Below are positions 2,635 through 34,143 of a stretch of 62,440 bases of DNA, one piece after another; the first letter of the stretch is position 1; each line of letters starts with the position of its first letter. A program made the translations under genes and the position numbers. Origin of the DNA: a virus. Taxonomy: Duplodnaviria > Caudoviricetes. The stretch is taken from positions 1-62,440 of IMG/VR virus record IMGVR_UViG_3300009026_000010, one strand, 5' to 3'. Under the pieces are notes generated by a model. That model was not told the DNA's origin. It saw only the letters and a list, made by a program, of their open reading frames with translations, and did not search any database.

Positions 2635-2710
2635 TCATTGACATTCAACCATGTAGACCACTCGGTCTACATGACCTAAAAATATAGTCTAACTCACCTC
2701 CCACCATGCG

Positions 2711-3023
2711 GTTACGTTGTTACGATCTTCACCCATATCCCCATCAACTTCGTAACAACTCCTCAACAGCTCTATTTCGGGGCTTTCAGCCTATATATTC
2801 TATATTTGTTACGATATTAACGAAATACGAAGTAGAAACTGTATTACAGAAAAAATTTAGTCCTTCACAACTTTTTTTATTTCTGTAAAACAAGTTCAAA
2901 GATCGTAACATCGTAACGGACAATCCGTGCAACAATGCAGCCGCTCTAGCACGGGGCTTTGAACCTTGTTACGTTTTTAATAAAATTCCGTAACAAGCCT
3001 TAAAATTTCGTAACATCGTAACA
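2711..3023. repeat. iteron array A: 10 GTTACG/CGTAAC cores around an AT-rich centre; putative replication origin element
   Basis: Cores at 2711, 2719, 2751, 2808, 2904, 2912, 2968, 2989, 3009, 3017; intergenic; homologous to the reverse complement of 33704-34020. Confidence 0.85.
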
Positions 3024-3134
3024 AACGCCTACAAGCCACCTTCCTGCGTTTTTAGCCCCTACCCGCTACCATCGTAGCTCCAACAGCTGAAAACGTCTCT
3101 ATCAAGCTCCTGCTCAGCCACAGAGGTCACAACC

Positions 3135-3464
3135 ATGCTTCTCTCAGCCCTTTTTCTCGGCTTCTTCCGCGCACTAGGTATCTTCATCACTCTGATTCGT
3201 TGCCCTCGGATGCTCGTCTTGCAATTATTGGGCCATGCTTGGGTACTTGATATCATAATGTCATCACTCATGTTCGCCATGCACTGGGGAACTGCCATCG
3301 GTGGTTTCAGTGCTGTCATCGCCGCTCTCTTCTGCTCACTCGGCATCACACTCTGTAAAGGATCACTCGGTTACATCCAATCTGGCACCTATTACAAAGG
3401 CTGGTTTGGTGACACACGACCCGCAGACAAACGCAACAAACATCCAATATCGAAGCCACTATGA
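3135..3464 (+). CDS. small membrane protein
   Basis: GAGG SD; 2-3 hydrophobic segments. Confidence 0.75.
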   Translation: MLLSALFLGFFRALGIFITLIRCPRMLVLQLLGHAWVLDIIMSSLMFAMHWGTAIGGFSAVIAALFCSLGITLCKGSLGYIQSGTYYKGWFGDTRPADKRNKHPISKPL

Positions 3465-3598
3465 CCCAACGCACTCTTCCTCTACCCAACCAACCACTCA
3501 AGCTTCCAGCTCATGTCCCAGTGTTCTGCCGTCGAACGCGGCAGGACATCAAGACATGTACGTGCTTGCGTTGCACAGCTCTGAGGACAGCAACATGA
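3461..3598 (+). CDS. small Cys-containing hypothetical protein (45 aa)
   Basis: ATGA overlaps on both sides; CTCLRC motif. Confidence 0.55.
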   Translation: MTQRTLPLPNQPLKLPAHVPVFCRRTRQDIKTCTCLRCTALRTAT

Positions 3599-3801
3599 TG
3601 GAAATAACATTCATAGACCTACTGATCTTCGCTTGCTGGGTAGCCATGTTCTACGCCTATTACTATTTCATTCCTCTACTATGGAAAGGTTTGGCTCCCA
3701 GCTACCCAACATTGCTACATATGACCAACTGTGCAAAATTCGCATCAGCCCTTGTAGCTATAGAAATTACCCACGCCTACCTACTGAGACTTCAAACATG
3801 A
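3595..3801 (+). CDS. small membrane protein
   Basis: GAGGA SD; two hydrophobic helices; ATGA coupling. Confidence 0.65.
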   Translation: MMEITFIDLLIFACWVAMFYAYYYFIPLLWKGLAPSYPTLLHMTNCAKFASALVAIEITHAYLLRLQT

Positions 3802-4133
3802 GCGACATCTACCAAGCTACCTACGACGCAGTACTCAAAAAACTATTCAACTGTGACATTGGGTCAGCGGTTAGTGACGCCATCCACAACTCAGCCATTG
3901 ACCACACAGCTACTATCGCTGGAGCTGCCATACAAGAACTGGCTATGGAGGTAGCGAACTCGCTTCAACGCCCTTCAGTCCTGTTCAAGCCAGAACTCTA
4001 TATCGTCGATAACAAATGGTGTGCTCAATACGGCGCAATCATGAACGGTTATGGAGATACACCAGCTGAGGCTATGGCTGATTTCGATACCAACTGGAAC
4101 GCACTCACAGTGCAAATTGCGGAGCACATGTAG
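3798..4133 (+). CDS. conserved phage hypothetical protein
   Basis: ATGA coupling; WCAxYG...GYGDTPAEAMADFD pattern. Confidence 0.75.
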   Translation: MSDIYQATYDAVLKKLFNCDIGSAVSDAIHNSAIDHTATIAGAAIQELAMEVANSLQRPSVLFKPELYIVDNKWCAQYGAIMNGYGDTPAEAMADFDTNWNALTVQIAEHM

Positions 4134-4134
4134 T

Positions 4135-4347
4135 ATGTCAGACTGCACAATACTACTTGTACTGCTCACCGCTGCCATAGTAGCTATGGTTACGGCACTC
4201 ATTTTTTCTGTGATCGGTGTATACACACGGAATACAAAAGAACAGAACTTCTTGCTCACATCAGCTGGAGTGCTTGCTATAACAAGTGTTTTACTGTGCT
4301 TTGCCTATTTCCTCTTCGACATGTCTATGAGGTTTCCACCACCATGA
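4135..4347 (+). CDS. small membrane protein (2 TM)
   Basis: Two long hydrophobic stretches; tight operon spacing. Confidence 0.65.
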   Translation: MSDCTILLVLLTAAIVAMVTALIFSVIGVYTRNTKEQNFLLTSAGVLAITSVLLCFAYFLFDMSMRFPPP

Positions 4348-4616
4348 TGCTATTCCTTACAATCTGCGCATGGCTTCTCTTAACGGTATTCATGTTGTAT
4401 CTCACGTGGATACTCGTGGACTACCACAGCCAAAAGGCAAAAATAATAGCTAGTGTCACATTATTCTTGTGTCTAGCATTCACTATCACCTTTATTGTCA
4501 GATACGAACAAAAATATCCGTGTCTGAAGTACGAAACCACCATGCAGTACGACCCTGCTACCAAGATGATGAGGCCAATGCGTATATGTACTCAACGCGG
4601 TGAATGGGTTGAATAA
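4344..4616 (+). CDS. small membrane protein with C-terminal Cys pair
   Basis: 2 TM segments followed by PCLKYET...ICTQRGEW. Confidence 0.7.
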   Translation: MMLFLTICAWLLLTVFMLYLTWILVDYHSQKAKIIASVTLFLCLAFTITFIVRYEQKYPCLKYETTMQYDPATKMMRPMRICTQRGEWVE

Positions 4617-4800: not shown

Positions 4801-4801
4801 T

Positions 4802-5370: not shown

Positions 5371-5393
5371 TTTATTACTCAAGGAATACCGCC

Positions 5394-10796: not shown

Positions 10797-11063
10797 ATGT
10801 TCTGTGAAGACATGAGCAAACATCCTGATGGATGCGGCTGTACTGATGTTGTGACTGCAGCAACTGACACATGCGCAAGTATGCAGAAAGAAATTCAGCT
10901 CCTTGCTGAGTTGGCTGCTGATCTGAAAAACTGTGTAGAACCACCGCCGGACAGGAACTGCTTTTGCCACACCTACTCACCATGCAGTGACTGCTTCAAC
11001 TATGCTCACACACGCGAAGTTCTGAGCGCGGCACAAACAATTCTTGAAAGGTATGGACTATGA
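10797..11063 (+). CDS. Cys-rich hypothetical protein
   Basis: CFCHTYSPCSDC motif. Confidence 0.7.
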   Translation: MFCEDMSKHPDGCGCTDVVTAATDTCASMQKEIQLLAELAADLKNCVEPPPDRNCFCHTYSPCSDCFNYAHTREVLSAAQTILERYGL

Positions 11064-11644
11064 AACAAGATCATCCTATGACTCCTAATGTGTTGGTTCC
11101 TTGTGACAAGGATGAAAGGCCAGTTATTGACCGAGTATCACTCTATACGCTAATGGATATCCGGAACGGTATTGCTGCTGTTTCAACAGATTTGGGTGAC
11201 GAGGCGTTTCAAGATGCGCTAGGAGCATGGGAAATTGCGCTACATAGGATAATAGAAGACTGTCGAATTGTAGCTCCTGATAATACGCCACAGGCAGAGC
11301 AGGTGGTGCAGCATTCCATAATTGCCGGAGCATTGTTCGACTTTCTCGGATTTCTTACTACGCGGGACAACAACACGACCTTTGGCGCTAACAGCCTCGC
11401 CGCTCCAGCAGTAGACCTGCTTTCGCAGTGGGCAGAAATAAGATCGCTGCCGCTTGACGAGGCAGACGTTAATTGCTGGCAATCGCACATTGGCACAGCC
11501 CCGCCCGCCCCTGACGTTAGTGGGTTGGTTGAGGCTTTGGAGCGGATAGTGTCGATATACGAGGCCGGGGAAAACTTCAGGCATATTCCTATGGATGAAG
11601 CCGCCACCGATGCCCTAGCAGCCCACCAGAACAGGGAGGGGTGA
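11060..11644 (+). CDS. hypothetical protein (lambdoid ea/nin-like mosaic)
   Basis: ATGA coupling; APPAPDVSGLVEALE segment typical of lambdoid accessory ORFs. Confidence 0.75.
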   Translation: MKQDHPMTPNVLVPCDKDERPVIDRVSLYTLMDIRNGIAAVSTDLGDEAFQDALGAWEIALHRIIEDCRIVAPDNTPQAEQVVQHSIIAGALFDFLGFLTTRDNNTTFGANSLAAPAVDLLSQWAEIRSLPLDEADVNCWQSHIGTAPPAPDVSGLVEALERIVSIYEAGENFRHIPMDEAATDALAAHQNREG

Positions 11645-13513: not shown

Positions 13514-13668
13514 ACAAATTGTGTCCTTGCTACGGCGAAGGTATAACCAATTTATCAAGTATGAACGAGCGGGTATGTAGTGCTTGTGGCCACAAAGAAC
13601 CGTGGACCAGAGACGAAAAACAACCTCCCTTAGTATCCAGCAACCGTGACACAAGGAAAAGAAAATGA
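13510..13668 (+). CDS. small Zn-ribbon protein (52 aa)
   Basis: CPC...CSACGH; ATGA overlaps on both sides. Confidence 0.6.
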   Translation: MNKLCPCYGEGITNLSSMNERVCSACGHKEPWTRDEKQPPLVSSNRDTRKRK

Positions 13669-17398: not shown

Positions 17399-17606
17399 CT
17401 CAGAGATTAGCGAAGAACAACTGCGCGCTCTTCTGAAGGAATATATCAAGGATAATTACAAAACTCAGAACGAGTTTGCCAGAGCAACGAACTGTAGTCG
17501 GGCATACGTTTCTGCTGTGTTGTATGGAAAAAGCAGAATGCCTCCTAGCTGGGCAAAATTAGTAGGTTACACATGCCGAAAGATAATCCTGCCGATCAAG
17601 AAGTAG
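17391..17606 (+). CDS. Cro/XRE-like HTH protein
   Basis: TQNEFARATNCSRAYVSAVLYG helix-turn-helix; GTG start. Confidence 0.7.
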   Translation: MIDSEISEEQLRALLKEYIKDNYKTQNEFARATNCSRAYVSAVLYGKSRMPPSWAKLVGYTCRKIILPIKK

Positions 17607-17977: not shown

Positions 17978-20344
17978 ATGGAAATCGTATTCCTCAGTGC
18001 TGAGGTTCCGCTTACAAAGACCTACCGTCAGCGTAGGGATCGCATTGAAAAGACGTCATACCCGCTTGTAGACTGCTTCACAAGCCATACCGAACAAGTC
18101 GATACTATCTCAGATTTCTTCACAGCGATAGGCAAACACGCTGCTTTAGGCCATTGTCTATTGAAAGGAACTATTACCGCTGCGCTTGTTGATGAGTCAC
18201 GAGCGGGTGCTACAGATCGGAATGGCCATACTGAGTGGGTGTGTCTGGACGTCGATGGTGTGGATATTGAATCCCCCGACGACTTTATGAACGCCCTCGG
18301 TCTTGGCAATCTCAGCTACATTGTGCAGTACAGCTCCAGCCACGGCATCAGTGACGATTTGCTGCACTGCCATATTTTTGTGATGCTGGAAAAACCATTC
18401 TCTGCCCCTTTGCTCAAGCAATGGCTCATTGATGTTAACTTCAACGTGCCGTTGTTGAACGCTCAGTTTAGCTTGTCTCCAAGCCAGAACTTTCTGTCTT
18501 GGCCACTGGACATTACTACTTGCCAAAACGACAAGCTCTTGTACATAGCACCACCGATTCTGGTAGGAATCGAAGACCCCCTTGGACCTGACCGCTTCCA
18601 ACTTGTACGCAAGAAAAGCGACCGACTACGTTTACCAGCCAACATCAGTTCAGTATCTGCTAACAGGCAGCGAATAGACGAAAAGATCAACGAGCTACGA
18701 CTTGGGCTGCAGTTACCCAAGCGCAAAGCCAGTAAGTACTCAAATGCTGGTCCTATCGAATATCAGACCAACCCTGACCAGTGTACTGTCACCGGCATTA
18801 AACAAGATCGTGGCTATGTATATTTGAATTTGAATGGCGGCGATTCATGGGGTTACTACCACCCCGAAGATCGTTTCGACTTCATCTACAACTTCAAAGG
18901 CGAGCCTACTTACCGCACCAAAGACCTCATCCCTGACTACTGGAATGATTGTGCCAAGGAAGTAGAACGCCAAGAAGATGCGGGAGTAATCACTACTCAC
19001 TTTGCTTTCCGTGACTTCAATTCAGCCAAGTACTACAACGGGTATTATGACCCGCAGAATCGTGAGGTATACATTGCTCAGGCAGCGTCCGAGAAGCAAC
19101 TCAATGATTACATGAGTGCCAATGGCCGAGTTATGCCTCCGGCAGTTCCAATTTGGTGTATGGAGTTTCTGCCGAACGAACCTTTCGTCATAAGGAAATG
19201 CCCAGATAAGCGGGGGTGGTCGGCACAGCTTAATACCTTCACGCCTTCGATCTATTTACAGCAAGAGCCGAAGAAGACAGCCAAGATTCCGCCTATTATC
19301 GAGCGTGTTATACGCCATGCTCTTGGTGGTAGCGACATGGTATTCGATGCTTTCATCAACTGGCTTGCTGTAGCTGTCCAAGACCGGAAAGCAATCGGTA
19401 CTGCTTGGCTGCTGTCAGGTATTCCCGGTACAGGTAAAGGTCTGTTGTGCCACAAAATTCTGAAACCGATGATGGGCCACAACTATGTTGTCCAGCGCCG
19501 GATGGATGAACTTGATGATAAGTTCAATGACTACCTTGAAGAATGTCTATTCTTCTTTGTCGATGAAGTAGAGCTTCCAGAAATGAAGAACTCGAACGTC
19601 ATCGAAGCCAAGATCAAAAACCTTATCACTGAAGAGACAATCAGCTTACGGGGTATGCACAGGGCTTCACGTACTGTACCTAACCACGTCAACTGGATAT
19701 TGTCTTCTAACATGTCTGACCCGTTGACCATCACAAACTCAGATCGCCGCTTTAACGTGGCTGATTACCAGCCTCAGAAACTCAAGATCACAGAAGCTGA
19801 GATTGCTCAGATTGAAAAAGAGCTGCAAAGCTTCTGTGATTATCTTCGTGTATTCAAAGCGAACCGTGACAAAGCGCGTGAAGTAATTTTGACTGCACAA
19901 CGCGAACGCCTTATCCATATCAGCACCACTACTATCGACCTTGCTGCTCAGGCTGTCCTGACTGGCAATCTGCAGTACTTCTTTGACGAATTGCCTACAG
20001 GTAACGTCAAGTACATCAACCCACGACAGCAAATGAAGTTGGGTCTGTATAAAGAGGTACTTGGCGATATCCTTCGTGAACCAAATGTGGGGGCTATAGG
20101 ACGTGACGCTTTACACGTTCTGTTTGACTACCTAATTCCTGAGTCGCCTACCAGTGGTAATAAATTCACAAGCATGCTCAAACACCACGGGCTGCATGTG
20201 TCTCCATGCCGCGTAGCTGGAAGCGCTGGTATTGTACGAGGTGTACCTACCCAATGGGTTATCAACGACCGGATGTATGAGACACTGGAACTTGATAAAT
20301 CAGGCATACCACTGTCTAAAGCGATAGGGAAAAAACAAGTATGA
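17978..20344 (+). CDS. primase/SF3 helicase fusion (AEP-like N-terminus, D5/DUF5906-like NTPase)
   Basis: N-terminal LDVD and HCH primase-like motifs; Walker A GIPGTGKG; FFVDE; SSN...DRRF. Confidence 0.85.
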   Translation: MEIVFLSAEVPLTKTYRQRRDRIEKTSYPLVDCFTSHTEQVDTISDFFTAIGKHAALGHCLLKGTITAALVDESRAGATDRNGHTEWVCLDVDGVDIESPDDFMNALGLGNLSYIVQYSSSHGISDDLLHCHIFVMLEKPFSAPLLKQWLIDVNFNVPLLNAQFSLSPSQNFLSWPLDITTCQNDKLLYIAPPILVGIEDPLGPDRFQLVRKKSDRLRLPANISSVSANRQRIDEKINELRLGLQLPKRKASKYSNAGPIEYQTNPDQCTVTGIKQDRGYVYLNLNGGDSWGYYHPEDRFDFIYNFKGEPTYRTKDLIPDYWNDCAKEVERQEDAGVITTHFAFRDFNSAKYYNGYYDPQNREVYIAQAASEKQLNDYMSANGRVMPPAVPIWCMEFLPNEPFVIRKCPDKRGWSAQLNTFTPSIYLQQEPKKTAKIPPIIERVIRHALGGSDMVFDAFINWLAVAVQDRKAIGTAWLLSGIPGTGKGLLCHKILKPMMGHNYVVQRRMDELDDKFNDYLEECLFFFVDEVELPEMKNSNVIEAKIKNLITEETISLRGMHRASRTVPNHVNWILSSNMSDPLTITNSDRRFNVADYQPQKLKITEAEIAQIEKELQSFCDYLRVFKANRDKAREVILTAQRERLIHISTTTIDLAAQAVLTGNLQYFFDELPTGNVKYINPRQQMKLGLYKEVLGDILREPNVGAIGRDALHVLFDYLIPESPTSGNKFTSMLKHHGLHVSPCRVAGSAGIVRGVPTQWVINDRMYETLELDKSGIPLSKAIGKKQV

Positions 20345-21683: not shown

Positions 21684-23054
21684 ATGCCAAAAACAATTAA
21701 GTTCTACGATCACCAGCTTGAGACTATCGAACTGCGTGAGCGCTCAGAAATTGTGTTGGATTTGTCTGAACCCGGCACCGGCAAAACACTGGCACATGCC
21801 CAGCACTTTCTTGAGCACAGAAGCAAAGGGGGTGGGGCTGGGCTTATAGCTTGCCCTCTCTCGCTTGTGGGGTCTGTATGGCCTGTTGATATGGCTAAGC
21901 TCGACAGGGGTATAGACGTCAGCTGTGCATACGCAGCCAACCGTGCTGAAGCTTTCAAGCCCGGTCATGACCTCTATGTTACCAACTATGAGGGGTTAAA
22001 GTACGTCGAAGCCAACTGGAAGAAATTGAAGAAGGAACTGGGTATCGACTGGCTGCTGATCGACGAAGGTACAGCCATGAAGAACAAGGAAGCTCAACGC
22101 ACGAAAGCAGCGACCAAGATTGCCCGAGACATTGAATACAAAGCCATATTGAGCGGGACACTGGGTTCCAAATCCATTCTGGACTATTGGGCACCTATGA
22201 ACATTCTTGATCGCGGTAAACGGTTGGGGTCTGTTTATTCAGGCTACCGGTCTGCTGTATGCGTGCCTGTGCAAGTTGGCCCGTCAAGCAGTATGATCGA
22301 ATGGGTGCCACGCGACGGAGCATTTGACGCTGTAGCTGCACTGGTGGCCGATATTAGCATCAGGCACGAACTTGAAGCATGCCATGACATGCCGGGTATC
22401 GTGATGCATAACTTGCAGATTTCGTTACCCAAGAAGCTGCAGAAACTGTATGACCAAATGGCCAGAGAGCAAGCCATCATACTGGCCAAAGGCAAAATCA
22501 TCACAGCAGTCAACGGTGGAGTGGCTGCAAACAAGCTGCTTCAGATTGCTTCAGGCTCCATATACGACAATGACAAGCACGGCGAAATCCTTGATTTACA
22601 ACGTGCTGAAATCATCGCTGATTTGTGTGAAGAACGTGAGCATTCAATCATAGCGTTCTTGTGGCACCACCAACGAGATATGATCATCCACGCTCTTGTT
22701 AAACGCGGCCGACGAGTAGCCTACATTGATGGTACTGTGTCTGCATCCAAGCGCAACAAGATCGTTGAAGATTATCAGGCTGGGGTGTACGACGACATTC
22801 TTCTACACCCACAAGCTGCTGCACATGGCCTGACGCTTACCCGCGCTACTACAACGATATGGGCTTCGCCTACATACAACTACGAATGGTTCGACCAGCT
22901 CAACCGCCGTGCCTATCGTATTGGCCAGCTCAACCGCTGTGAAGTCATCGTCATTACAGCTCGCAACACATTGGACGAGCATGCTTACGCTGTCTGTACC
23001 GAAGATGGGGTGAATATGCGGGATATGTTCAACGCTATTGCAAACTACAGGTAA
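21684..23054 (+). CDS. SNF2-like SF2 helicase
   Basis: EPGTGKT, IDEGT, LSGT, QLNRRAYRIGQ. Confidence 0.9.
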   Translation: MPKTIKFYDHQLETIELRERSEIVLDLSEPGTGKTLAHAQHFLEHRSKGGGAGLIACPLSLVGSVWPVDMAKLDRGIDVSCAYAANRAEAFKPGHDLYVTNYEGLKYVEANWKKLKKELGIDWLLIDEGTAMKNKEAQRTKAATKIARDIEYKAILSGTLGSKSILDYWAPMNILDRGKRLGSVYSGYRSAVCVPVQVGPSSSMIEWVPRDGAFDAVAALVADISIRHELEACHDMPGIVMHNLQISLPKKLQKLYDQMAREQAIILAKGKIITAVNGGVAANKLLQIASGSIYDNDKHGEILDLQRAEIIADLCEEREHSIIAFLWHHQRDMIIHALVKRGRRVAYIDGTVSASKRNKIVEDYQAGVYDDILLHPQAAAHGLTLTRATTTIWASPTYNYEWFDQLNRRAYRIGQLNRCEVIVITARNTLDEHAYAVCTEDGVNMRDMFNAIANYR

Positions 23055-23058
23055 CACC

Positions 23059-23265
23059 ATGCGAACTTGTGTATACGACAACCCTGCCACCATGCAGCGT
23101 GAATGCTGGCAAGACGGACATCTTCTGCATGTATATTCTTTTTTGGTGTTGGAGCCTTACGCAAAAAAATCTATACCATCTGAACATTTCTTTTTCGGTG
23201 CTAACGTAGGCCCATGGGACGAAAGCCAATTGATAGGAGACGCTAATGCGCGTAGCCCCGAGTAA
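23059..23265 (+). CDS. hypothetical protein
   Basis: Fills the gap between helicase and polymerase. Confidence 0.55.
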   Translation: MRTCVYDNPATMQRECWQDGHLLHVYSFLVLEPYAKKSIPSEHFFFGANVGPWDESQLIGDANARSPE

Positions 23266-25153
23266 AAAACTGACACCGCTGTTCCTTGATTTCGAGACTT
23301 ACTGGTCTGTGGATTTCACCCTCCGGAAAATACCGACAGGTGACTACATACGTGACAAACGGTTCAAAATCCATTGTGTATCAGCCAAACTCGGGCGAGG
23401 TAAGACTCGTTCGTTCACCAATATGGATGAGTTCCAAGCTTACCTAAACGAACAAGACTGGGACAACATAGTGCTGGTCGGCCATAACCTGTACTTCGAC
23501 GGGCTGATCCTCACCGAACTGTTCGGTGTATACCCTGCTGCTTATCACTGCACCATGTCAATGTCCCGTGGCTTGTGGCGTAACACCTGCGCCCATAACC
23601 TCAAAGATATGTGTGCTCGTGTAGGGATCGTAGCCAAGACCAAAGCAGGTGCGCTGCTCAACACTAAAGGTAAAGAGGAGCTTACCAAGCGTGAGCTTCG
23701 TCAACTGTGCGGGTACTGCAACGACGATGTGAACGAGACAGCTCAGGCTTACTACATCATGCTGCCGTACGTTCCAGAAATCGAGCTGGAAATCATCAGC
23801 CATACAGTTCGTTGCTTCACTGAGCCACTGCTTGTAATCAACGCTGCGCTGCTTGAAGAGGCAATTGAAGAAGTTGAAGAACGACGCGAAGAGCTGCTGG
23901 CCAAGGTAGAGGAGTTCGTGGTTGAGCAATGCCCCGAGGCTGACACATTGGCCAAGGCACTGCGTAGCCGTATTCACTTTCCTCGTATGCTCGAAGCACT
24001 TGGCATTAACCCGCCAATGAAGATCAGCCCACGTACTGGCAAACTCACCTACGCACTGGCAGCAAAAGACCCTGAGTACATGGAGCTGCTTGAAGACGAA
24101 GACCCTATGGTCAGGCTGCTGTGCGAAGCTCGTTCAGAGTTCACCAGTAATCAGACTATGACCCGTGCTCAACGGCTACTGTCAGCGACTGAAGGTGGCG
24201 CTACGCTACCGATAATGTACTTGTACTGTGGTGCGCATACTATGCGCTGGTCAGCTTCCAACAAGATGAATCTGCAGAACCTGCAGCGTGGTTCTAAGCT
24301 GAGGAAGGCTATCGAGGCTCCACCGGGGTACGTGATGATGGTCGGTGACTCCGGCCAGATTGAAGCGCGTGTGGTAGCTTGGATTGCCGATGAAGAACAG
24401 CTGCTACATGGCTTCAGGCAAGCTGATTTGAAGTTGGATCGTGATGTGTACTGTAAATTCGCTGATGACGTATACGGGCGTACGATCACTAAAGACGACG
24501 ACGATGAACGCTTTGTAGGTAAGACAGCGATTCTTGGTCTTGGCTTTGGAATGGGCTGGAAAAAGTTTTTCAGCACAATGGTTATAGCGGGTCGAGCCAT
24601 GTCACCCGACAAAGCTCAGCAAGTAGTTAACCTGTACCGAAATAAGTACACCAAGATACCGGCGCTTTGGGAATATCTTAACCGGATTCTCGGCATCATG
24701 GCGGCTGGCGGTTCAGGCGAGATTGTCTTGGCTGGTGGTCAACTGGTGCTTGAGTTCGAGCACGACAAAGTTTGGATGCCCAACGGTCTTGCCCTTCACT
24801 ATCCCGGTCTCAGAGCTACATACGACGAGGAAGGGCGTCAGAGCGGTTTTGAGTTTCTGTATGTCAAAGGTAACAAAGCCTTCTACAAGAAAATCTATGG
24901 CGGGCTATTCACAGAAAACATTGTTCAGTGCTTGGCACGGATTATTGTGGGTGAGCAGATTGTCAAAATAGCACGCCGCTATCGAGTTGTGATGACCACT
25001 CACGACGAAGCTGTAATGTTGGTTATGAAGAAAATGCATGAAATCGACAAGGCTTATAACTTTATGTTCCAAACAATGTCGATAGCTCCTGACTGGTGCG
25101 CTACCTTACCGGTCACAGCTGAAGTAAAATACGCGGATAACTACTCAAAATAG
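23246..25153 (+). CDS. family A DNA polymerase with 3'-5' exonuclease
   Basis: ExoI DFET, ExoII HNLYFD, ExoIII YCNDD; motif A DSGQIEAR, motif B RFVGKTAILGLGFG, motif C THDE. Confidence 0.93.
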   Translation: MRVAPSKKLTPLFLDFETYWSVDFTLRKIPTGDYIRDKRFKIHCVSAKLGRGKTRSFTNMDEFQAYLNEQDWDNIVLVGHNLYFDGLILTELFGVYPAAYHCTMSMSRGLWRNTCAHNLKDMCARVGIVAKTKAGALLNTKGKEELTKRELRQLCGYCNDDVNETAQAYYIMLPYVPEIELEIISHTVRCFTEPLLVINAALLEEAIEEVEERREELLAKVEEFVVEQCPEADTLAKALRSRIHFPRMLEALGINPPMKISPRTGKLTYALAAKDPEYMELLEDEDPMVRLLCEARSEFTSNQTMTRAQRLLSATEGGATLPIMYLYCGAHTMRWSASNKMNLQNLQRGSKLRKAIEAPPGYVMMVGDSGQIEARVVAWIADEEQLLHGFRQADLKLDRDVYCKFADDVYGRTITKDDDDERFVGKTAILGLGFGMGWKKFFSTMVIAGRAMSPDKAQQVVNLYRNKYTKIPALWEYLNRILGIMAAGGSGEIVLAGGQLVLEFEHDKVWMPNGLALHYPGLRATYDEEGRQSGFEFLYVKGNKAFYKKIYGGLFTENIVQCLARIIVGEQIVKIARRYRVVMTTHDEAVMLVMKKMHEIDKAYNFMFQTMSIAPDWCATLPVTAEVKYADNYSK

Positions 25154-25160: not shown

Positions 25161-25568
25161 ATGGCTACTCCCAAAGTAGACTTTACTGAGATTACCGATG
25201 TGAAACAGCGGAACGCTGCTATCGCATATCGCCACAAACTGGAAGCTCAAAGGAAAAAAGCTTCTGCTGCCCTCAAGGTCATTGAGGATGAAATTAAGGC
25301 GCTTGACGAGAGCTTGATCGTTTACCTGAAAGACTCCGAGGAAGAGCGGGTAGAAATCAAAGCGGGTGTTGGTGTGAGGCTCACGAGCAGCACCGTGCCT
25401 ACTGTCAAAGACTGGGATGCTTTCTATGCATGGATTAAGAAGAATAATGCCTTCTTCATGCTTGAGCGTCGTCCCAGTGTCACCGGTTATAGGGATGTTC
25501 TGGCTTCAGGAAAAGCCATTCCGGGTGTCGAAAGTTTCACGAAGATCAAATTGAACTTGGTTTCGTGA
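25161..25568 (+). CDS. conserved replication-module protein
   Basis: Coiled coil followed by V.DWDAFY.WI...PGV. Confidence 0.8.
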   Translation: MATPKVDFTEITDVKQRNAAIAYRHKLEAQRKKASAALKVIEDEIKALDESLIVYLKDSEEERVEIKAGVGVRLTSSTVPTVKDWDAFYAWIKKNNAFFMLERRPSVTGYRDVLASGKAIPGVESFTKIKLNLVS

Positions 25569-29077: not shown

Positions 29078-29860
29078 CTATACACTGTGTACGTTGGTGA
29101 TTATGGAATTGTAAGCATCCACGCTTTCAACTACGCAATCGACACTCCCCCCTGACGAAGCAGACCCAGTTAGATACAAACCGTATTTGAAGTAGCAAGT
29201 GTTGTACCCTGCCCAGTCTGCCAGCGTCTGAGAATGTCGTACCGTGCCATCTATGGTTACAGTAAGAGTCAGATCAGTAAGCTCAATACGCACATCCATG
29301 AAGCCTTCCACACGCGGACCAAGATCGTACCTTTCATAAGAACCTGAATCCCTACGCACCACTGCCCACAAGTGCTGAGCTATTCCAGAGCGTTGCTTGG
29401 CCCAAGTAAGCCGTAAAGGAGGAGGTACACTCACAGCAGCTTTACGGTGAATCTGCGCCCATGTGTATTCATTCAACTCAGAATCGCTGATTGATAGGCG
29501 AATATGCATGACGTTAGTACCGATAGCTGCAGGCCATTCATCTGCGTGGCGAAGCTCTGTTCTGAATTGTTCAGTACCATTACGCTGTCCGAAAAAGGCC
29601 AGTTGCGGTGTAGCAGTGTGTGTTGTGTAGGTGAAGTAAGGGGGTAGAGTCATCCCTTGTAGAAGCTGAGCAGCAGATAAAGTTTGTCGTGGACCTCCGA
29701 AATCGCCTTGAAATTCACATTTGCCTATGAACGTTTGGAACCCCGGACTTTCTGGCTCAGGTTCTTCTATCACGATAGGCGGTTGTGGAGTGCGGTCAAA
29801 TACACGCAGCCACGTCCGTGCTGCTGATCGTATGGTGTAATATATGGCTGACCTTATCAT
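29078..29860 (-). CDS. polysaccharide lyase family 7 (alginate lyase-like)
   Basis: All three PL7 signatures in order: RTELR, QIH, YFKYGLY. Confidence 0.82.
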   Translation of the reverse strand: MIRSAIYYTIRSAARTWLRVFDRTPQPPIVIEEPEPESPGFQTFIGKCEFQGDFGGPRQTLSAAQLLQGMTLPPYFTYTTHTATPQLAFFGQRNGTEQFRTELRHADEWPAAIGTNVMHIRLSISDSELNEYTWAQIHRKAAVSVPPPLRLTWAKQRSGIAQHLWAVVRRDSGSYERYDLGPRVEGFMDVRIELTDLTLTVTIDGTVRHSQTLADWAGYNTCYFKYGLYLTGSASSGGSVDCVVESVDAYNSIITNVHSV

Positions 29861-30120
29861 AGGATAACCTGTACAGATACATCGTTACAGTTATACGCCT
29901 GAATCTGGATAGCGTCGTCCGGATGTAGCTCTACGGCAACCATCGTATTTTTTGTGAATGTGAGTTTATCTAAAGCATAGAACTCACCGTCTACTGACCG
30001 CATGAGAATCCGAACTTCACCTGCGCCAAAATCCCCCATACATCTGATACTTACTGCGCCAGTACTCTCGATGTTGATGGGGGCAGAATTAAAATTTTTC
30101 AAGTTCAAGAAAGAAGGCAT
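29857..30120 (-). CDS. small beta-rich protein, possible lyase adaptor
   Basis: AGGAG SD; ATGA-coupled to the lyase. Confidence 0.75.
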   Translation of the reverse strand: MPSFLNLKNFNSAPINIESTGAVSIRCMGDFGAGEVRILMRSVDGEFYALDKLTFTKNTMVAVELHPDDAIQIQAYNCNDVSVQVIL

Positions 30121-30147
30121 ATGTTTTTCTCCTAGAAAGTATCTATA

Positions 30148-32025
30148 TCACGTTGTCATTACCGGGCGTAGCACGATCTGGCTTACCTCGATAGCTCCAG
30201 ATACTGTTGACCCCGGATACCCACCGGCACCGATGCGCACGCGCACATCAATGGCATCGGCAGGTATGGTAATCACCGGCGTGCGCATCACTCCTACCCA
30301 CGACCCATCGGGCAAGCGCATGGCCTGCACGTCGGTCATGGTAGTGAGCTCACCAGCCATGGCATACAGAATGCCACCAGCACCGCGATCAATCCGAATA
30401 TCAAACTGCAGGCCAGCCAGATTCACGCTGGCATCAACGCGCACAACACAAAGCGCTTCTACATCCGTACCAATCGGCCAGTCGGGGGCGATCTGCTGTA
30501 GCGCACACTGCCCAACGCCAACGCCAGCCGTGCCTGAAATCACAAAGCGCTGCGCCGGCACGCCTCGATGACTGGTTACCTTGCTGGCGACAACCGACAG
30601 CCCGCCAACGGCATCCACCTGACTGCTGGCAGCAACATCACCCGTGCCACCGCTGACACTGCCACCAGTACCAAGCAGCATGCCGTTTGGCAGCAGGTTG
30701 CCGTATGGATTATCAGTAGCGTGCCACACGTTGCTTGGATCAAAAAACATATCATCACGGGGCGGCTCAAGCGCATTGATTATCTCTGCAATGCTTCGGC
30801 CCAAACGCCACGCACCCCAAGTGCCGGGGTGAATGCCGTCATAGGTCATATACTCAAGGCTTAGCCCATCACCATCACTGTAATCAGTGAAAATTGGTAT
30901 CGGGTTCAGCACCTCAAACCGCTCGCGCCGATACTGCGCCTGCTGAATATAGTTGTTGATGCGAGCGCATTTGGTCTTGTGAGCGGCGGTGTACGTGGTC
31001 TGCGGACCACGCGGATAAATCATGGACGCCAACACAAACTTACCGGCTGCATAACAGGCGTCCCAAATTGCCTCAAGGTTTGCACACGTTTCATCAGAGG
31101 TGATCGACTGCGTCACATCGTTACCACCGATTGATACCAGCACATAGTCAGTACCCGCAGCCAACACATCGTTGATGCGGGCCAGCAGGTCTGCGCTGTT
31201 GTCGCCGCCCACGCCAAAATTCCAGCCCTTGTCGAAATACACGCGCTGCTCACACAATGCCAGCGCCCATGTCATATAGCCAATATCTCGCAAACGCTCG
31301 CGGGACGTGGTTCCAGAGTTCTGACCTGTAACGCTGTCACCTGCTATCGCTATGGTCTTGCGGCCCCCTGTAGCAACAGAAGGCGCTGGAGCGCCACCAA
31401 CACCAGTAGCTACAAGCTGACCGTACTTGGTAACAATCATCTTCGGTTGGGCAGCACTGGCCAGCCGGCTGTAAAGAGTCAGCGTGTGCGAAGAGCTGGC
31501 CGGACCAATCCGCACTACCACTGCGGTAGTAGTTCCTACCCCCGCAACGAATCCTGCTTTAAGACTCACGCCGTTGCCAGACGTGGCACCGGACGTCAGG
31601 CGATCCACCAAGGTGGCCACCAGCACACCACCAGCCCACACCGTCACTACCAAGTTACCGGCCGAGCTGATTGCGATAAACGGGATCAGTATATCCAGAT
31701 GGACGTGTTGACCCTCGAAAGTATCCAGCGTCTGGGAAATAAGCGCGTAACCATCTGACGCACCGGGAGCAGAGGAACCCACTGCGATCTGGAATGAAGA
31801 ACCTGCAACCGAAGTAGAAGAAGACAGCCCAGCCGTATACGACTCAATCTCTACCCCTGCTTCGCTAAGGTCTACTTCACTCAGCGTCACGATGTCGCCG
31901 CTGCCTTTCTTGAAGAACAGCAGCCCATCAGCCGTGTTGACGGCCAGCTCGCCCAGTTCTAGCGAGCCAGCAGTCGGTACTGCTGCGGCCGTAGACGACC
32001 GCTTATGGAGTATCTTGTCAGCCAT
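30148..32025 (-). CDS. tail fibre/spike with SGNH/GDSL hydrolase domain
   Basis: Mtd_N-like N-terminus (KRSS...GELAVNTADG); blocks GDSVT, GVGG, GGND, DGIHP. Confidence 0.85.
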   Translation of the reverse strand: MADKILHKRSSTAAAVPTAGSLELGELAVNTADGLLFFKKGSGDIVTLSEVDLSEAGVEIESYTAGLSSSTSVAGSSFQIAVGSSAPGASDGYALISQTLDTFEGQHVHLDILIPFIAISSAGNLVVTVWAGGVLVATLVDRLTSGATSGNGVSLKAGFVAGVGTTTAVVVRIGPASSSHTLTLYSRLASAAQPKMIVTKYGQLVATGVGGAPAPSVATGGRKTIAIAGDSVTGQNSGTTSRERLRDIGYMTWALALCEQRVYFDKGWNFGVGGDNSADLLARINDVLAAGTDYVLVSIGGNDVTQSITSDETCANLEAIWDACYAAGKFVLASMIYPRGPQTTYTAAHKTKCARINNYIQQAQYRRERFEVLNPIPIFTDYSDGDGLSLEYMTYDGIHPGTWGAWRLGRSIAEIINALEPPRDDMFFDPSNVWHATDNPYGNLLPNGMLLGTGGSVSGGTGDVAASSQVDAVGGLSVVASKVTSHRGVPAQRFVISGTAGVGVGQCALQQIAPDWPIGTDVEALCVVRVDASVNLAGLQFDIRIDRGAGGILYAMAGELTTMTDVQAMRLPDGSWVGVMRTPVITIPADAIDVRVRIGAGGYPGSTVSGAIEVSQIVLRPVMTT

Positions 32026-32033
32026 GCGTCACC

Positions 32034-32564
32034 TCAGAATGTGCCGCCATCTACTCCATCGACAAACTCAATGGCATTACCAGCTGCGTTCACTTTCGCA
32101 ATGAAACCATTGGCACTGGTGAAGTTGGCTGGTGTATCCGTCAGAGCAATGAACGTGGTTACACCAGACGGTGGCGCTTCCATTTCAAAGGTGCCGCTAC
32201 GGTAAACCAGAACCTGCCCGTTGGCTGCACCTGCCAGATCAACGTCGCTAAGATCACCTATGCTCTCAGCTTGTAGCCGTGCAAGAACCGCAGAAGCAAA
32301 GTCGCTGATAGTTGACGCAAGCTGAGTGCCGGTGTGCGTAGCACGGTCACGTAGGTCTGCATCCGAGGCGTTCGCTGTAGCGCCCGCTGCGATACCTGCC
32401 AGTTTGTCTACGTCAGTCTTACCACCGATCTTGACCGGTGTGCCGTCGCTTATACGACCGATGAACAGGTTGCCTGAATCTTCCGAATACGCCAGCTCAC
32501 GTGCTGCAAGCGTAGTAGGAGTCGCTGTAGTTGTACTGCCCTTAATCCGAATTATATCTGCCAT
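32034..32564 (-). CDS. short tail fibre/adaptor protein
   Basis: Mtd_N-like N-terminus; RATHTGTQ and LSDVD repeats; C-terminal DGGTF. Confidence 0.8.
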   Translation of the reverse strand: MADIIRIKGSTTTATPTTLAARELAYSEDSGNLFIGRISDGTPVKIGGKTDVDKLAGIAAGATANASDADLRDRATHTGTQLASTISDFASAVLARLQAESIGDLSDVDLAGAANGQVLVYRSGTFEMEAPPSGVTTFIALTDTPANFTSANGFIAKVNAAGNAIEFVDGVDGGTF

Positions 32565-32576
32565 AACCCACCCCGT

Positions 32577-32870
32577 TTAGAAGTAACCACCGTCCGGTGA
32601 AACCGGTTCGAACGCTCCGTCATGGAACACTTTGAGTTGGAGCGTTAATGGGTTGTACCACGTCTCGCTCTCCACCGCGCCTACAGGCACTGTGTCCTGA
32701 ATGTATGATATCCCGCCTGCTCCTACACCATTACGCCCCGGTCTGCCCATGATACCGGCAGCTACAACGCCTGTCTGTGGCTGAGCTGTCTGTGTGACGA
32801 ATCGCTGCTGCTGCCGTGCTGCAGTTACATGGGCAGAGCTGCCTGTACTCACACGCAGAATCTTAGCCAC
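32577..32870 (-). CDS. small tail fibre connector
   Basis: Short collagen-like GxxG; WYNP...; C-terminal DGGYF. Confidence 0.75.
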   Translation of the reverse strand: MAKILRVSTGSSAHVTAARQQQRFVTQTAQPQTGVVAAGIMGRPGRNGVGAGGISYIQDTVPVGAVESETWYNPLTLQLKVFHDGAFEPVSPDGGYF

Positions 32871-33537
32871 GAGTCACTTCCCCTGTAATAGAGAACGGAC
32901 TGACCGCTACGAGAGAGTACACGCCATCGTCAGCAGTGATGTACTCAGCATCCCACACACCGGTACATACCGGCAGCGTCTCTGCTACAGCAGCAGGTAA
33001 GCGAAGGATGTACCGGCTGTTGGCCACATCAACTTCGACTACACCACCAGCAGCGTCGTATTCATCCAGCCCTGATGAGTAGAAGGACAGAACCTCTTCT
33101 ACGTCATTGGTGCGTCTGCGTAGCTGCGCACGAGCTTCACAACCGGTCAGGTCAGAAGGCTTGTTGAACTCCACGACACCACCGGAGGTATACGTCTGTA
33201 GACTGGTGCCGTTGACATTGAAGAGCGTGATGGTGTCTGCATCGACTACACGCACACGGTACGATTTAGCGCGCTCAGCAGCCGATACACGCAGGGAGCC
33301 ACCACAGGTGCTGGAAGGAGCGTTCTCGTCTGTATTGAGCGAATTGGGCCGTTGTATACCGGAAATCTCAATCTCCCAGTCATCAACCAAGCCGTGGCCA
33401 ACCACAGTCAGAGTAACGGGGGCATAGTTGGTGATGGCTGGGATTGGCTTCATCACACGCTCTTCTTCGCCAACAAACAACGCCAGTTCGAGCGTTTTTC
33501 CTTTGACGATATGTAGATCAACAATAGATGCGCTCAT
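32863..33537 (-). CDS. tail fibre attachment (BppU-like) protein
   Basis: DLTGCEARAQLR...GVWD pattern; first gene of the fibre module. Confidence 0.7.
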   Translation of the reverse strand: MSASIVDLHIVKGKTLELALFVGEEERVMKPIPAITNYAPVTLTVVGHGLVDDWEIEISGIQRPNSLNTDENAPSSTCGGSLRVSAAERAKSYRVRVVDADTITLFNVNGTSLQTYTSGGVVEFNKPSDLTGCEARAQLRRRTNDVEEVLSFYSSGLDEYDAAGGVVEVDVANSRYILRLPAAVAETLPVCTGVWDAEYITADDGVYSLVAVSPFSITGEVTRG

Positions 33538-33568
33538 AACCGGCCCCGTAGTCCTTCGTGTACCACGA

Positions 33569-33597
33569 AGGATAGTCTACCAATGGTAGGGGGTCAA
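33569..33597 (-). promoter_or_regulatory. sigma70-like promoter for the tail-fibre module
   Basis: TTGACC-N17-TATCCT on the minus strand. Confidence 0.55.
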
Positions 33598-33694
33598 TAT
33601 AAACAAATCGACGCTTATACGCGCTCTCAGGCGGTCTGGTAGTAAGTTCCTCTGCCGCAGGTGGGCAGTAGCACAGCTGCGTGAAGCTGTCAAA

Positions 33695-34020
33695 TTACCG
33701 GCTTGTTACGATGTTACGAAATTTCGGCGTCTGTTACGAATTTCGTAACATCGTAACAAGCCGGTAAATACGCGGGCTGCAGACCATTTGTTACGATTGT
33801 TACGATGTTACGATCTTAAAACTGTTCTACAACAGAAAATTTTTTATGGGCTGAAAAAACTTTTTTTTCTGTAAACTAAATTCTATTTCGTATTTCGTAA
33901 AGATCGTAACAAATAGGGGTATAGAGGGGTTAAGAAGCCCATTCCAGAGCCTCTGGAGGCTGTTACGAAACCTGTTACGAAATTGGGTAGGATAGGGGTC
34001 AAGATCGTAACATCGTAACA
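33695..34020. repeat. iteron array B: 13 perfect TGTTACGA/TCGTAACA octamers, including a 29-bp perfect inverted repeat
   Basis: Octamers at 33704, 33712, 33732, 33743, 33751, 33789, 33798, 33806, 33904, 33961, 33973, 34005, 34013; inverted homolog of 2711-3023. Confidence 0.9.
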
Positions 34021-34143
34021 AACTCCCAAACCTTTGGTTATAAGACGTTGAGACCTTATAACCAAAGTATGTAGTGGCACTATGCTGCTATACCATTCGT
34101 CGGAGATTTCGGCTTTTTTGTATGTTGTCGCATATCTGTATGT

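What the first reader, a model, noticed from the sequence alone, without database searches (positions are those of the whole stretch)
2650..34067. Two inverted TGTTACGA iteron arrays at opposite poles of the genome: candidate bipartite replication origin
Seen: two intergenic ~320-bp elements, 2711-3023 (10 GTTACG cores) and 33704-34020 (13 perfect octamers). The reverse complement of B aligns colinearly with A, e.g. TGTTACGATCTT(C/G)ACCC, TATTTGTTACGAT..T.ACGAAATACGAA.TAGAA, TTACAGAAAAAA, AAGATCGTAACATCGTAAC and AAATTTCGTAACATCGTAACAA. Spacers have diverged while octamers, their orientation pattern and a central A/T-tract core are kept. Each copy also has a hairpin of unrelated sequence at the equivalent outer end (2650-2673; 34032-34067). 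Their centres are ~31.0 kb apart in a ~62.3 kb genome, i.e. almost diametrically opposite on the circle. Established: satellite phage P4 needs two separated cis sites (ori and crr) carrying the same octamer iteron, bound and looped by its primase-helicase alpha. This phage encodes a primase/SF3-helicase fusion (17978-20344). Inference: the arrays are paired initiator-binding sites (dual strand-specific origins, or origin plus enhancer/terminus), possibly looping half the genome. Alternatively they could be recombination sites that invert the 31-kb segment.
Basis: partly seen in the sequence, partly recalled or inferred. Interest (0 to 1): 0.88.

Follow-up and report, generated by a model that had tools for sequence, protein, structure and literature searches.

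The report
Duplicated iteron replication origin in phage
Two near-identical stretches of short repeats around an easily melted AT-rich core, found at the same two places in a whole family of 60–70 kb phages, are most likely two copies of the phage's replication origin, a layout already known from phage SPP1.

Summary
All 19 exact TGTTACGA octamers of the window lie in two ~320-bp non-coding elements (2711-3023; 33704-34020), and these align colinearly in inverted orientation.

The elements are conserved. Of 12 complete family genomes, 10 have two paralogous arrays at the same two syntenic places: the early region, and just after the giant virion-protein gene. These include Pseudomonas phages KPP25, phiR18 and CRPAP1904. 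Two genomes have a single array, directly upstream of the primase-helicase gene.

The iteron word differs by lineage, but the layout is constant: opposed 8-bp tandem repeats around an AT-rich core. That core is the least or nearly least stable duplex of each genome. One relative adds four DnaA boxes.

The phage initiator candidate is an NrS-1-type PrimPol/SF3 helicase. Its winged-helix-like tail shows one case of co-variation with the iteron.

Best reading: two copies of an iteron origin, A ancestral and B a second origin or SPP1-oriR-like auxiliary site (0.65).

Half-genome spacing is clade-specific (48.6-49.8% in four genomes, 38-46% in six others). Circularity of this genome is not shown, and no inversion isomers were seen.

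This is a new member of a known kind. The scan noted a similar duplicated array in Dhillonvirus before.

The parts
2650..2673 (+). Hairpin after gene 2248-2634. It is probably the terminator or RNA-end structure of the upstream gene and not part of the origin proper.
   Evidence: Folds at -16.2 kcal/mol, z -5.2. The relatives have unrelated GC hairpins at the same place.
2711..3023 (.). Array A: 10 GTTACG cores (6 exact TGTTACGA) in opposed groups around an AT-rich core.
   Evidence: The syntenic arrays in KPP25, phiR18, CRPAP1904, G009-G012 lie in the early region.
2790..2902 (.). AT-rich core of A, the candidate DNA-unwinding element, flanked by an inward-facing iteron at 2807-2814 (+) and a pair at 2903-2918 (-).
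   Evidence: The least stable 60-bp duplex window of the whole record starts at 2792 (rank 1, z 3.9). Map.
2844..2888 (.). Two opposed copies of TTACAGAAA (2844-2852 +, 2880-2888 -) inside the A core: a candidate priming or melting word.
   Evidence: All 3 of 3 exact copies in the window lie in the array cores. A relaxed form is present in an array of 7 of 7 genomes, but that pattern was defined post hoc.
33695..33767 (.). Perfect 29-bp inverted repeat built from iterons (outer module of B).
   Evidence: pair I4. Folds at -47.5 kcal/mol, z -12.7.
33704..34020 (.). Array B: 13 exact TGTTACGA with the same module order as A, read on the - strand.
   Evidence: A syntenic array sits directly after the giant virion-protein gene in 10 of 12 complete genomes.
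33814..33903 (.). AT-rich core of B with one TTACAGAAA (33866-33874, -).
   Evidence: The 60-bp window starting at 33855 ranks 3rd least stable (z 3.6). Word.
34032..34067 (-). Hairpin after gene 34144-34443, at the upstream outer end of B in the direction of transcription.
   Evidence: Folds at -18 kcal/mol, z -4.1.
17978..20344 (+). PrimPol / SF3-helicase (788 aa), the candidate initiator, with a C-terminal winged-helix-like tail (about aa 682-757).
   Evidence: Pfam DUF5906. PDB sequence match to the NrS-1 C-terminal region, E 2e-30. AlphaFold2 model with pLDDT 84.9. Foldseek hits to the NrS-1 CTR at E 1e-25, poxvirus D5/E5, SaPI PriRep1 and SaPI5 primase-helicase. Tail alignment.
21684..25153 (+). 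Second helicase (21684-23054) and family-A DNA polymerase (23246-25153): replisome partners.
   Evidence: PHROGs phrog_62 and phrog_17.

Best explanation
Arrays A and B are two copies of one iteron-type replication-origin element. A phage-encoded initiator, most likely the NrS-1-type PrimPol/SF3 helicase (17978-20344), binds the TGTTACGA iterons through its winged-helix-like tail. The iterons face each other across the AT-rich core. The core melts, the helicase rings load, and the PrimPol domain primes, possibly at the TTACAGAAA words. The family-A polymerase then extends.

A is the ancestral origin: in relatives it sits directly upstream of the initiator gene. B is a second copy kept just after the giant virion-protein gene. 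Because B keeps the meltable core as well as the iterons, I take it to be able to fire. It may also serve, as proposed for SPP1 oriR, as an initiator-bound site that stalls forks and helps the switch to concatemer synthesis.

Shown: the anatomy, the conservation, the duplex instability, and the initiator's fold class. Inferred: binding, melting, priming and firing.
For: (1) Clustering. 19 of 19 octamers lie in the two arrays against 1.8 expected.

(2) Conservation. The same octamer and layout occur at both syntenic gaps of KPP25. phiR18 and CRPAP1904 each have two clusters. There is no nucleotide-level similarity to any phage record, and the initiator is only 59% identical in amino acids.

(3) Family tally. 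Of 12 complete genomes, 10 have two paralogous arrays and 2 have one (G005, G008). The iteron word changes by lineage (GTTACGA, GTTCCGA, AGTGTAA-type, T[GA]CTACA, GGTACA, GGGACAA, AGAAC) while the architecture stays the same.

(4) Duplex stability. The cores rank 1 and 2 among the least stable 60-bp windows in KPP25 (z 6.4 and 6.3, next 3.55), G006, G009 and G011, and 1 and 3 in the window and G007.

(5) Adjacency to the initiator gene. The A-type array lies at most about 1 kb upstream of the primase-helicase gene in G005, G006, G007, G008, G013 and L014.

(6) DnaA boxes. G015's array carries 4 exact TTATCCACA words within about 400 bp, out of 5 in its 23-kb contig. That this word is the DnaA-box consensus is recalled.

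(7) Same octamer elsewhere. Clusters of the same octamer beside AT-rich tracts lie next to unrelated primase/helicase genes in other viral contigs: L015 (PriCT_1, D5_N, DUF5906), L023, L013 and L018 (DUF927 plus HTH_56), and L026 (AAA_25).

(8) Initiator fold. Matches to the NrS-1 CTR, D5/E5 and SaPI PriRep1 with dsDNA.

(9) Co-variation. G006 nests with G005/G013 in the helicase-body tree, while G008 falls outside. Yet G006 and G008 share both the AGTGTAA-type iteron and a T-x-F-T-R signature in the candidate recognition helix, against (N/H)-K-F-T-(S/A) in the GTTACGA and GGAAC genomes.

(10) Precedent. SPP1 oriL and oriR have the same organisation (repeats plus an AT-rich DUE), are both bound by gp38, and oriR lies in the late region between transcription signals (PMC6316719, passages).
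Against: There is no experimental or depth evidence: all 7 runs are held as contigs only.

Cumulative GC skew shows no turning point at either array and follows gene orientation instead.

In the window, array A is 15 kb from the initiator gene.

The tail is the least conserved part of the protein, even between the window and KPP25, which share the octamer (23-46% identity in the last three blocks against 58% overall). No block of the protein tracks iteron type in the sliding comparison.

The tail-only model has no significant structural match (0 hits at E <= 0.001), and no profile link to a D5/P4-type tail (hhalign E 0.25).

The co-variation rests on one contrast.

DnaA boxes occur in 1 of 13 genomes only, and the window has none.

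The same octamer beside non-homologous helicases could also mean chance reuse or an unknown shared factor.
Confidence: 0.65

Rival explanations
1. Only A is an origin. B never fires and is an auxiliary initiator-binding site. It could be an SPP1-oriR-like roadblock that stalls the fork and triggers the switch to concatemer synthesis. It could instead be a P4-crr-like enhancer that loops to the origin.
For: A-type arrays are universal (12 of 12 complete genomes) and ancestrally adjacent to the initiator gene. B is missing in 2 of 12, G005 and G008. SPP1 model: PMC3485210 abstract and PMC6316719 passages. In the window, B has more and better iterons than A (13 against 6 exact), plus a perfect 29-bp inverted repeat. 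That would suit tight binding.
Against: B keeps an AT-rich core that is among the three least stable spots in every two-array genome tested, and it keeps the TTACAG word. A mere binding site would not need either feature. The P4 ori/crr details are recalled only; no such paper was found in the library.
Confidence: 0.25
2. The arrays are transcription-control regions: clustered operators for a phage regulator that times middle/late or tail-fibre gene expression.
For: Both lie between genes of one orientation, after a hairpin and before the next gene group. A sigma-70-like TTGACC-17-TATCCT lies downstream of B at 33597-33569. AT-rich islands also mark promoters in SPP1 (PMC6316719).
Against: Promoter-like hits are at chance level: 2 found against 1.5 expected, and 1 against 1.3. 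None is at equivalent places in A and B. The core orientation of B relative to its flanking genes is flipped in KPP25. In G009-G012, B lies at the end of the structural operon facing the opposing replication genes. No small regulator is conserved with the octamer.
Confidence: 0.08
3. The arrays are recombination sites that invert, or in direct orientation excise, the ~31-kb segment between them.
For: They are long imperfect inverted repeats. A and B are more alike within a genome than their orthologues are between lineages: 60 and 108 bits against 38-42, and with iterons masked 40 and 51 against 21-25. G006 has a 164-bp pair at 92% identity. This shows sequence exchange between the copies.
Against: No joint or flank switch appears in contigs of 4 runs. 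The loose ends at 2917 and 3024 are 19-21-nt iteron cross-matches to B's own flank. Gene order between the arrays is identical in the window and KPP25, although the relative orientation of the arrays differs. No recombinase was seen among the 38 window proteins scanned, but I did not scan every ORF.
Confidence: 0.02

Closest known systems
Bacillus phage SPP1 oriL / oriR with origin-binding protein gp38
   Same: There are two copies of one origin-type element (repeats plus an AT-rich unwinding element) in one phage genome. One lies in the replication/early region. The other interrupts the late region between transcription signals. Both are thought to be bound by the same initiator (PMC6316719 passages; PMC3485210 abstract).
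   Different: The SPP1 initiator is a separate origin-binding protein that works with a loader and a DnaB-type helicase. Here the candidate is a single PrimPol/SF3-helicase. SPP1's sites are about 13 of 44 kb apart, against 38-50% of the genome here. I did not test for homology to gp38.
Satellite phage P4 ori + crr with the alpha primase-helicase (recalled; not found in the library)
   Same: Octamer iterons are shared by two separated cis sites. The initiator is a primase fused to an SF3 helicase, with a DNA-binding C-terminal domain.
   Different: Both sites here have full origin anatomy with a meltable core. They lie 26-42 kb apart. The second site is dispensable in 2 of 12 relatives. Homology of the tail to a D5/P4-type tail is not shown.
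SaPI / PICI Rep or PriRep origins, and SCCmec Cch-type helicases
   Same: Iterons flank an AT-rich region next to a self-loading SF3 helicase gene. There is a Foldseek match to PriRep1 with dsDNA (7pds) and to the SaPI5 primase-helicase (7ola). The same octamer lies beside DUF927+HTH_56 helicases in L023, L013 and L018.
   Different: Those elements have a single origin directly beside the gene. Here there are two, and in the window neither is adjacent to the initiator gene.
Nitratiruptor phage NrS-1 primase-polymerase and its 8-nt recognition sequence
   Same: It is the closest solved relative of the initiator. The enzyme starts DNA synthesis at a specific 8-nt template word that occurs only twice in its genome, once per strand, and this was proposed as the origin (PMC7102993 and PMC8718748 passages).
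   Different: The NrS-1 word (TTTGGTTA) is a single-stranded primase site, not a repeated array. No iteron arrays are described there.

Membership tests
Iteron-type replication origin of an SF3 primase-helicase initiator (P4 / SaPI class) | Cluster of short repeated binding words in both orientations | tested here: met
   19 of 19 octamers lie in two arrays. Maps.
Iteron-type replication origin of an SF3 primase-helicase initiator (P4 / SaPI class) | AT-rich, easily melted unwinding element between or beside the repeats | tested here: met
   The cores rank 1 and 3 in the window, and 1 and 2 in KPP25, G006, G009 and G011.
Iteron-type replication origin of an SF3 primase-helicase initiator (P4 / SaPI class) | Origin lies next to the initiator gene | tested here: not met
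   In the window A is 15 kb and B 13 kb from the gene. The feature is met in the relatives G005, G006, G007, G008, G013 and L014.
Iteron-type replication origin of an SF3 primase-helicase initiator (P4 / SaPI class) | Genome encodes a primase fused to an SF3 helicase | tested here: met
Iteron-type replication origin of an SF3 primase-helicase initiator (P4 / SaPI class) | Initiator binds the repeats; the fragment supports replication | not testable with these tools
   Only indirect evidence: one case of co-variation between iteron and tail helix.
SPP1-type dual origin (oriL/oriR) | Two copies of the same repeat plus DUE organisation in one genome | tested here: met
SPP1-type dual origin (oriL/oriR) | Second copy sits in the late region, bracketed by transcription signals | tested here: inconclusive
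   B lies between late genes, with a hairpin on one side. The promoter-like site downstream is at chance level.
SPP1-type dual origin (oriL/oriR) | gp38-type origin-binding protein with a loader and a DnaB-type helicase | not tested
   No search with gp38 was made. The replication genes found are PrimPol/SF3 helicase, a second helicase and PolA.
P4 ori + crr | Alpha-type C-terminal origin-binding domain | tested here: inconclusive
   The tail is winged-helix-like by secondary-structure order. Foldseek gives 0 hits at E <= 0.001. hhalign against a D5-type tail gives E 0.25. The PDB profile search gives nothing relevant.
P4 ori + crr | Both cis sites are required for replication | not testable with these tools
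   Indirectly against: 2 of 12 complete relatives have one array only.
Invertible DNA segment bounded by recombination sites | Both orientations of the segment exist in the population | tested here: not met
   No joints or alternative flanks in contigs of 4 runs. Contigs drop rare forms, so this is weak.
Sigma-70 promoter / operator region | Promoter hexamers at conserved places within both copies | tested here: not met
   Hits are at chance level and not at equivalent positions.

The most novel reading that the evidence does not exclude
In the window/Kochitakasuvirus clade the two origin copies are held almost exactly half a genome apart: 49.7, 49.6-49.7, 49.7 and 48.6% in four genomes whose initiators are only 59% identical. 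On this reading the replicating circle is a two-origin replicon with symmetric termination. Alternatively it is an origin with an initiator-bound barrier placed at the antipode to time the switch from circle-to-circle to concatemer replication. The copies would be kept alike by gene conversion.
Probability: 0.15. Interest if true: 0.65.

Novelty: new member of a known kind. Interest (0 to 1): 0.45.

Why it matters
It gives concrete, testable origin candidates for a phage family that has none described. The family includes Pseudomonas aeruginosa phages that are studied for therapy (KPP25, phiR18, CRPAP1904).

It shows that a duplicated origin, so far best documented for SPP1, is conserved over deep divergence in an unrelated group that uses an NrS-1-type PrimPol/helicase.

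The lineage-specific iterons, matched to one initiator gene, form a natural series for working out how such initiators read DNA.

As for prior description: the CRPAP1904 paper has 0 occurrences of 'origin', 'iteron' or 'intergenic'. In the KPP25/phiR18 search I saw only titles and abstract starts, and none mention an origin. The original KPP25 paper is not in the library.

Tried and rejected
Searches that found nothing useful:
- Megablast of window 1-25000 against phage records: no match.
- The search for related loci with the 109-aa protein next to A: none confirmed.
- Text search for the octamer: 12,585 papers, all primer noise in the 15 listed.
- P4 crr papers: none in the library, so P4 details stay recalled.

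The 16-mer scan of IMG/VR gave 16 loci, roughly the number chance would give. Only those with local clusters were used. L011, L012, L016/L021 and L019/L020 have no real cluster. L024's neighbours were not examined.

Sequencing runs: all 7 are Logan contigs, so no depth profile, read ends or rare isomers could be seen. Parts of the stretch without cover in X3 and X4 mean nothing.

Protein comparisons that gave no answer:
- The sliding identity of the primase-helicase does not single out a specificity region.
- The tail-only model (pLDDT 73) gave no significant fold match. The weak list is mostly winged-helix domains, and I use that only as a hint.
- hhalign of the tail alignment against L015's D5-type tail: E 0.25, probability 0.2%.
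- PDB profile search with the tail: one chance hit at E 1.7.
- BLAST of the tail against the tails of the helicases that sit beside the same octamer: nothing below E 2.6.

DnaA boxes are absent from the window arrays. GC skew is uninformative. The HTH candidates were rejected as conserved binders. A mobile-element (MITE-like) reading was considered and dropped, because the two positions are syntenic across lineages whose repeat words differ. Complex prediction was not used, since it takes no DNA. Supplementary files of papers were not opened; supplements of the NrS-1 papers may hold more on recognition sites.

Full report
OBSERVATION. The window is a viral record of 62,440 bp, classed linear and 97% complete. 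The octamer TGTTACGA occurs 19 times: 6 in 2718-3023 and 13 in 33704-34020, with none elsewhere. Shuffles give 1.81 +/- 1.40, and 0 of 100 reach 19. Array A (2711-3023) has 10 GTTACG cores and array B (33704-34020) has 13 perfect octamers. A on the + strand aligns colinearly with B on the - strand: 77% column identity over 452 columns, with a best HSP of 120 nt and E 2e-13. Both outer hairpins fold strongly. B also holds a perfect 29-bp inverted repeat made of iterons.

GENOME ENDS. The 'circle' is not shown. Both record ends are poly-G junk. An independent 62,313-bp assembly of run X1 stops at the same left end, near window position 93. The contig of a second sample stops at 152. This suggests a real fixed end in the divergent region between the terminase genes and the early genes. 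It could also be a stretch that no assembler crosses. Five of 10 more distant relatives do assemble as circles, and the cultured relatives are deposited as circular.

CONTEXT. Genes run on the + strand from about 1210 to 29011. These are early and replication genes: an AAA ATPase, an Nmad5 protein, the PrimPol/SF3 helicase at 17978-20344, an exonuclease, a second helicase and PolA. Genes run on the - strand from 62225 down to 29078: terminase, portal, capsid, a 2130-aa virion protein, then B, then a tail-fibre, esterase and alginate-lyase group. A lies between + genes and B between - genes, and each is preceded by a hairpin.

RELATIVES WITH THE SAME OCTAMER. No phage record is similar at the DNA level. 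By protein, the nearest cultured phages are Pseudomonas phages KPP25, phiR18, CRPAP1904 and YMC17/07/R4900a (genus Kochitakasuvirus), at 59% identity in the primase-helicase. KPP25 has the same gene order and two large gaps at the same places. Both gaps are filled with GTTACGA/GTCACGA iterons around an AT-rich core. phiR18 and CRPAP1904 also have exactly two clusters. I did not check YMC17/07/R4900a.

WIDER FAMILY. A search with an alignment of the primase-helicase found 19 viral contigs at 31-59% identity. None of the 10 whose whole records I scanned has a GTTACG cluster. A de novo search of eight complete genomes found lineage-specific arrays with the same architecture:
- G007: GTTCCGA
- G006 and G008: AGTGTAA-type
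- G009 to G012: T[GA]CTACA
- G005: GGAAC/AGAAC-type
.

In total 12 complete genomes were examined: the window, KPP25, phiR18, CRPAP1904 and G005 to G012. Ten have two paralogous arrays. Two (G005, G008) have one, and in both it lies directly upstream of the primase-helicase gene.

Where there are two, one array lies in the early region and the other directly after the giant virion-protein gene. The early-region array is beside the homologue of the 109-aa protein in KPP25 and G009 to G012, or directly upstream of the primase-helicase gene in G006 and G007.

Three partial contigs (G013, G015, G016) each show an A-type array. L014, a 12-kb contig with a 40%-identical helicase, has the window's own octamer directly upstream of that gene.

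ORIGIN HALLMARKS.

(a) Duplex stability. With nearest-neighbour stacking energies in 60-bp windows, the array cores are the least stable places of each genome. They rank 1 and 2 in KPP25 (z 6.4 and 6.3, next 3.55), G006, G009 and G011, and 1 and 3 in the window and G007. The single arrays of G008, G013 and G016 rank 1. In G005 the rank-1 spot falls next to its single array.

(b) Adjacency to the initiator gene in six relatives, as listed above.

(c) DnaA boxes. G015's array combines GGTACA iterons facing each other across an AT-rich core with four exact TTATCCACA words. These are 4 of the 5 in its 23-kb contig, where about 0.2 would be expected. I recognise that word from memory as the DnaA-box consensus. 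It is found in 1 of 13 genomes only, and not in the window.

(d) A second word. TTACAGAAA occurs three times in the window, all in the cores: two opposed copies in A and one in B. A relaxed form lies in an array of 7 of 7 genomes. That is 10 of 21 hits where about 0.3 would be expected, but I chose the pattern after seeing the data.

(e) The same octamer, clustered beside AT-rich tracts, lies next to unrelated primase or helicase genes in other viral contigs, one cluster per record where I checked.

THE INITIATOR. The 788-aa protein matches the solved C-terminal region of the NrS-1 primase-polymerase by sequence, E 2e-30. An AlphaFold2 model built on 14 sequences has pLDDT 84.9. Foldseek finds the NrS-1 CTR at E 1e-25, then poxvirus D5/E5, SaPI PriRep1 with dsDNA, the SaPI5 primase-helicase and ASFV PrimPol. 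So it belongs to the primase plus SF3-helicase initiators.

NrS-1 polymerase starts synthesis at a defined 8-nt template word that occurs twice in its genome and was proposed as its origin (PMC7102993 and PMC8718748, passages).

The last ~110 residues have the helix-strand-helix-helix-strand-strand order of a winged helix. The tail alone finds no significant structural or profile match.

The candidate recognition helix reads (N/H)-K-F-T-(S/A) in the GTTACGA and GGAAC-type genomes. It reads T-x-F-T-R in G006 and G008, and it is quite different in G009 to G012. In a tree of the helicase body, G006 groups with G005/G013 and with window/KPP25 (support 0.93-1.0), and G008 lies outside. G006 and G008 nevertheless share iteron type and helix signature at only 23% tail identity. 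That is one joint switch against phylogeny: suggestive, not proof.

Against the tail as reader: it is the least conserved region even between the window and KPP25.

WHY TWO COPIES. A and B are more alike within a genome than orthologous arrays are between the two lineages that share the octamer. The best HSPs are 60 and 108 bits within genomes against 38-42 between them. With iterons masked they are 40 and 51 against 21-25. G006's pair is 92% identical over 164 bp. So the copies exchange sequence, or are held alike by a common partner.

Their relative orientation is not fixed. It is inverted in the window and G006, direct for the KPP25 cores, and mixed in G007.

The spacing, as a share of the record:
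- window 49.6-49.8%
- KPP25 49.6-49.7%
- phiR18 49.7%
- CRPAP1904 48.6%
- G007 46%
- G006 39%
- G009 to G012 38-40%
(my arithmetic).

Half-genome spacing is therefore a property of one clade and follows from synteny. It may or may not be selected there.

The closest described case is SPP1. Its oriL and oriR share repeats plus an AT-rich DUE, and both bind gp38. oriR sits in the late region between transcription signals. A fork stalled at gp38-oriR is proposed to trigger the switch to concatemers (passages, abstract).

RIVALS. A transcription-control role is not excluded. However, promoter-like hits are at chance and not at matching places, B's core is flipped relative to its genes in KPP25, and no regulator is conserved. 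Inversion has no support in contigs of four runs: the loose ends at 2917 and 3024 are short iteron cross-matches. GC skew gives nothing either way.

VERDICT. The arrays are real, conserved and origin-like. Most likely they are two copies of the phage origin served by the PrimPol/SF3 helicase (0.65). The role of the second copy is open. This is a new member of a known kind (SPP1-like duplicated iteron origin; P4/SaPI-like initiator class).

Earlier notes of this scan report a similar duplicated array in Dhillonvirus coliphages (unchecked by me), so the pattern may be widespread. I found no description of these elements in what I could see of the literature. The CRPAP1904 paper has no occurrence of origin, iteron or intergenic. 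The listing of 20 of 33 papers naming KPP25 or phiR18 shows none about replication origins (titles and abstract starts only). The original KPP25 paper is not in the library.

Noticed in passing
window 47-85 and 62342-62373: Poly-G runs and low-complexity junk at both record ends. An independent assembly (62,313 bp) and a second sample's contig stop at the same left end, so the phage may have fixed physical ends in the region between the terminase and early genes.
   Followed up: partly
window 11048-11080: A 33-nt stretch is shared with another contig (4,389 bp, depth 8) in runs X1, X2 and X4, with loose ends on both sides. It may be a related phage or a mobile piece.
   Followed up: no
window 13665-14273: This protein carries Pfam Nmad5 (nucleotide modification associated domain 5, E 7.5e-19), a hint that the phage modifies its DNA bases.
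   Followed up: no
window 29078-32025: A tail-fibre-like protein with a GDSL/SGNH esterase domain lies next to a PL7-type alginate lyase, directly downstream of array B.
   Followed up: partly
L015 4225-4459; L023 2571-2849; L013 3698-3904; L018 4830-5036; L026 1406-1556: The same octamer forms origin-like clusters beside unrelated primase or helicase genes (D5/P4-type, DUF927+HTH_56 Cch-type, AAA_25) in proviral or viral contigs of very different GC content. There is one cluster per record where I checked.
   Followed up: partly
G015 (L083) 17100-17560: The A-type array of this relative carries four exact DnaA-box words in addition to its own GGTACA iterons, so the phage origin may recruit host DnaA.
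   Followed up: partly
G005 (L052/L053) 38204-38240 and 46776-46847: Short tandem repeats: a CTAACCC-type unit x7, and a 13-nt unit x6. Neither is at the array positions.
   Followed up: no
G017 (L088) 24346-24616 and 25214-25484: Two blocks of 10-11 tandem copies of a ~27-nt unit lie upstream of the primase-helicase gene, near the contig end. No iteron array was identified in this partial contig.
   Followed up: no
G008 (L074) 60210-60511: A second AT-rich spot (rank 2, z 4.3) has a different repeated word (ACTTCGG x6). It lies between the early genes and the terminase gene, 5 kb from the single iteron array.
   Followed up: no
KPP25 (L009) 29863-30121: A dense tandem repeat of a CAGCC-type unit (15-17 copies) lies inside an annotated early gene.
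   Followed up: no
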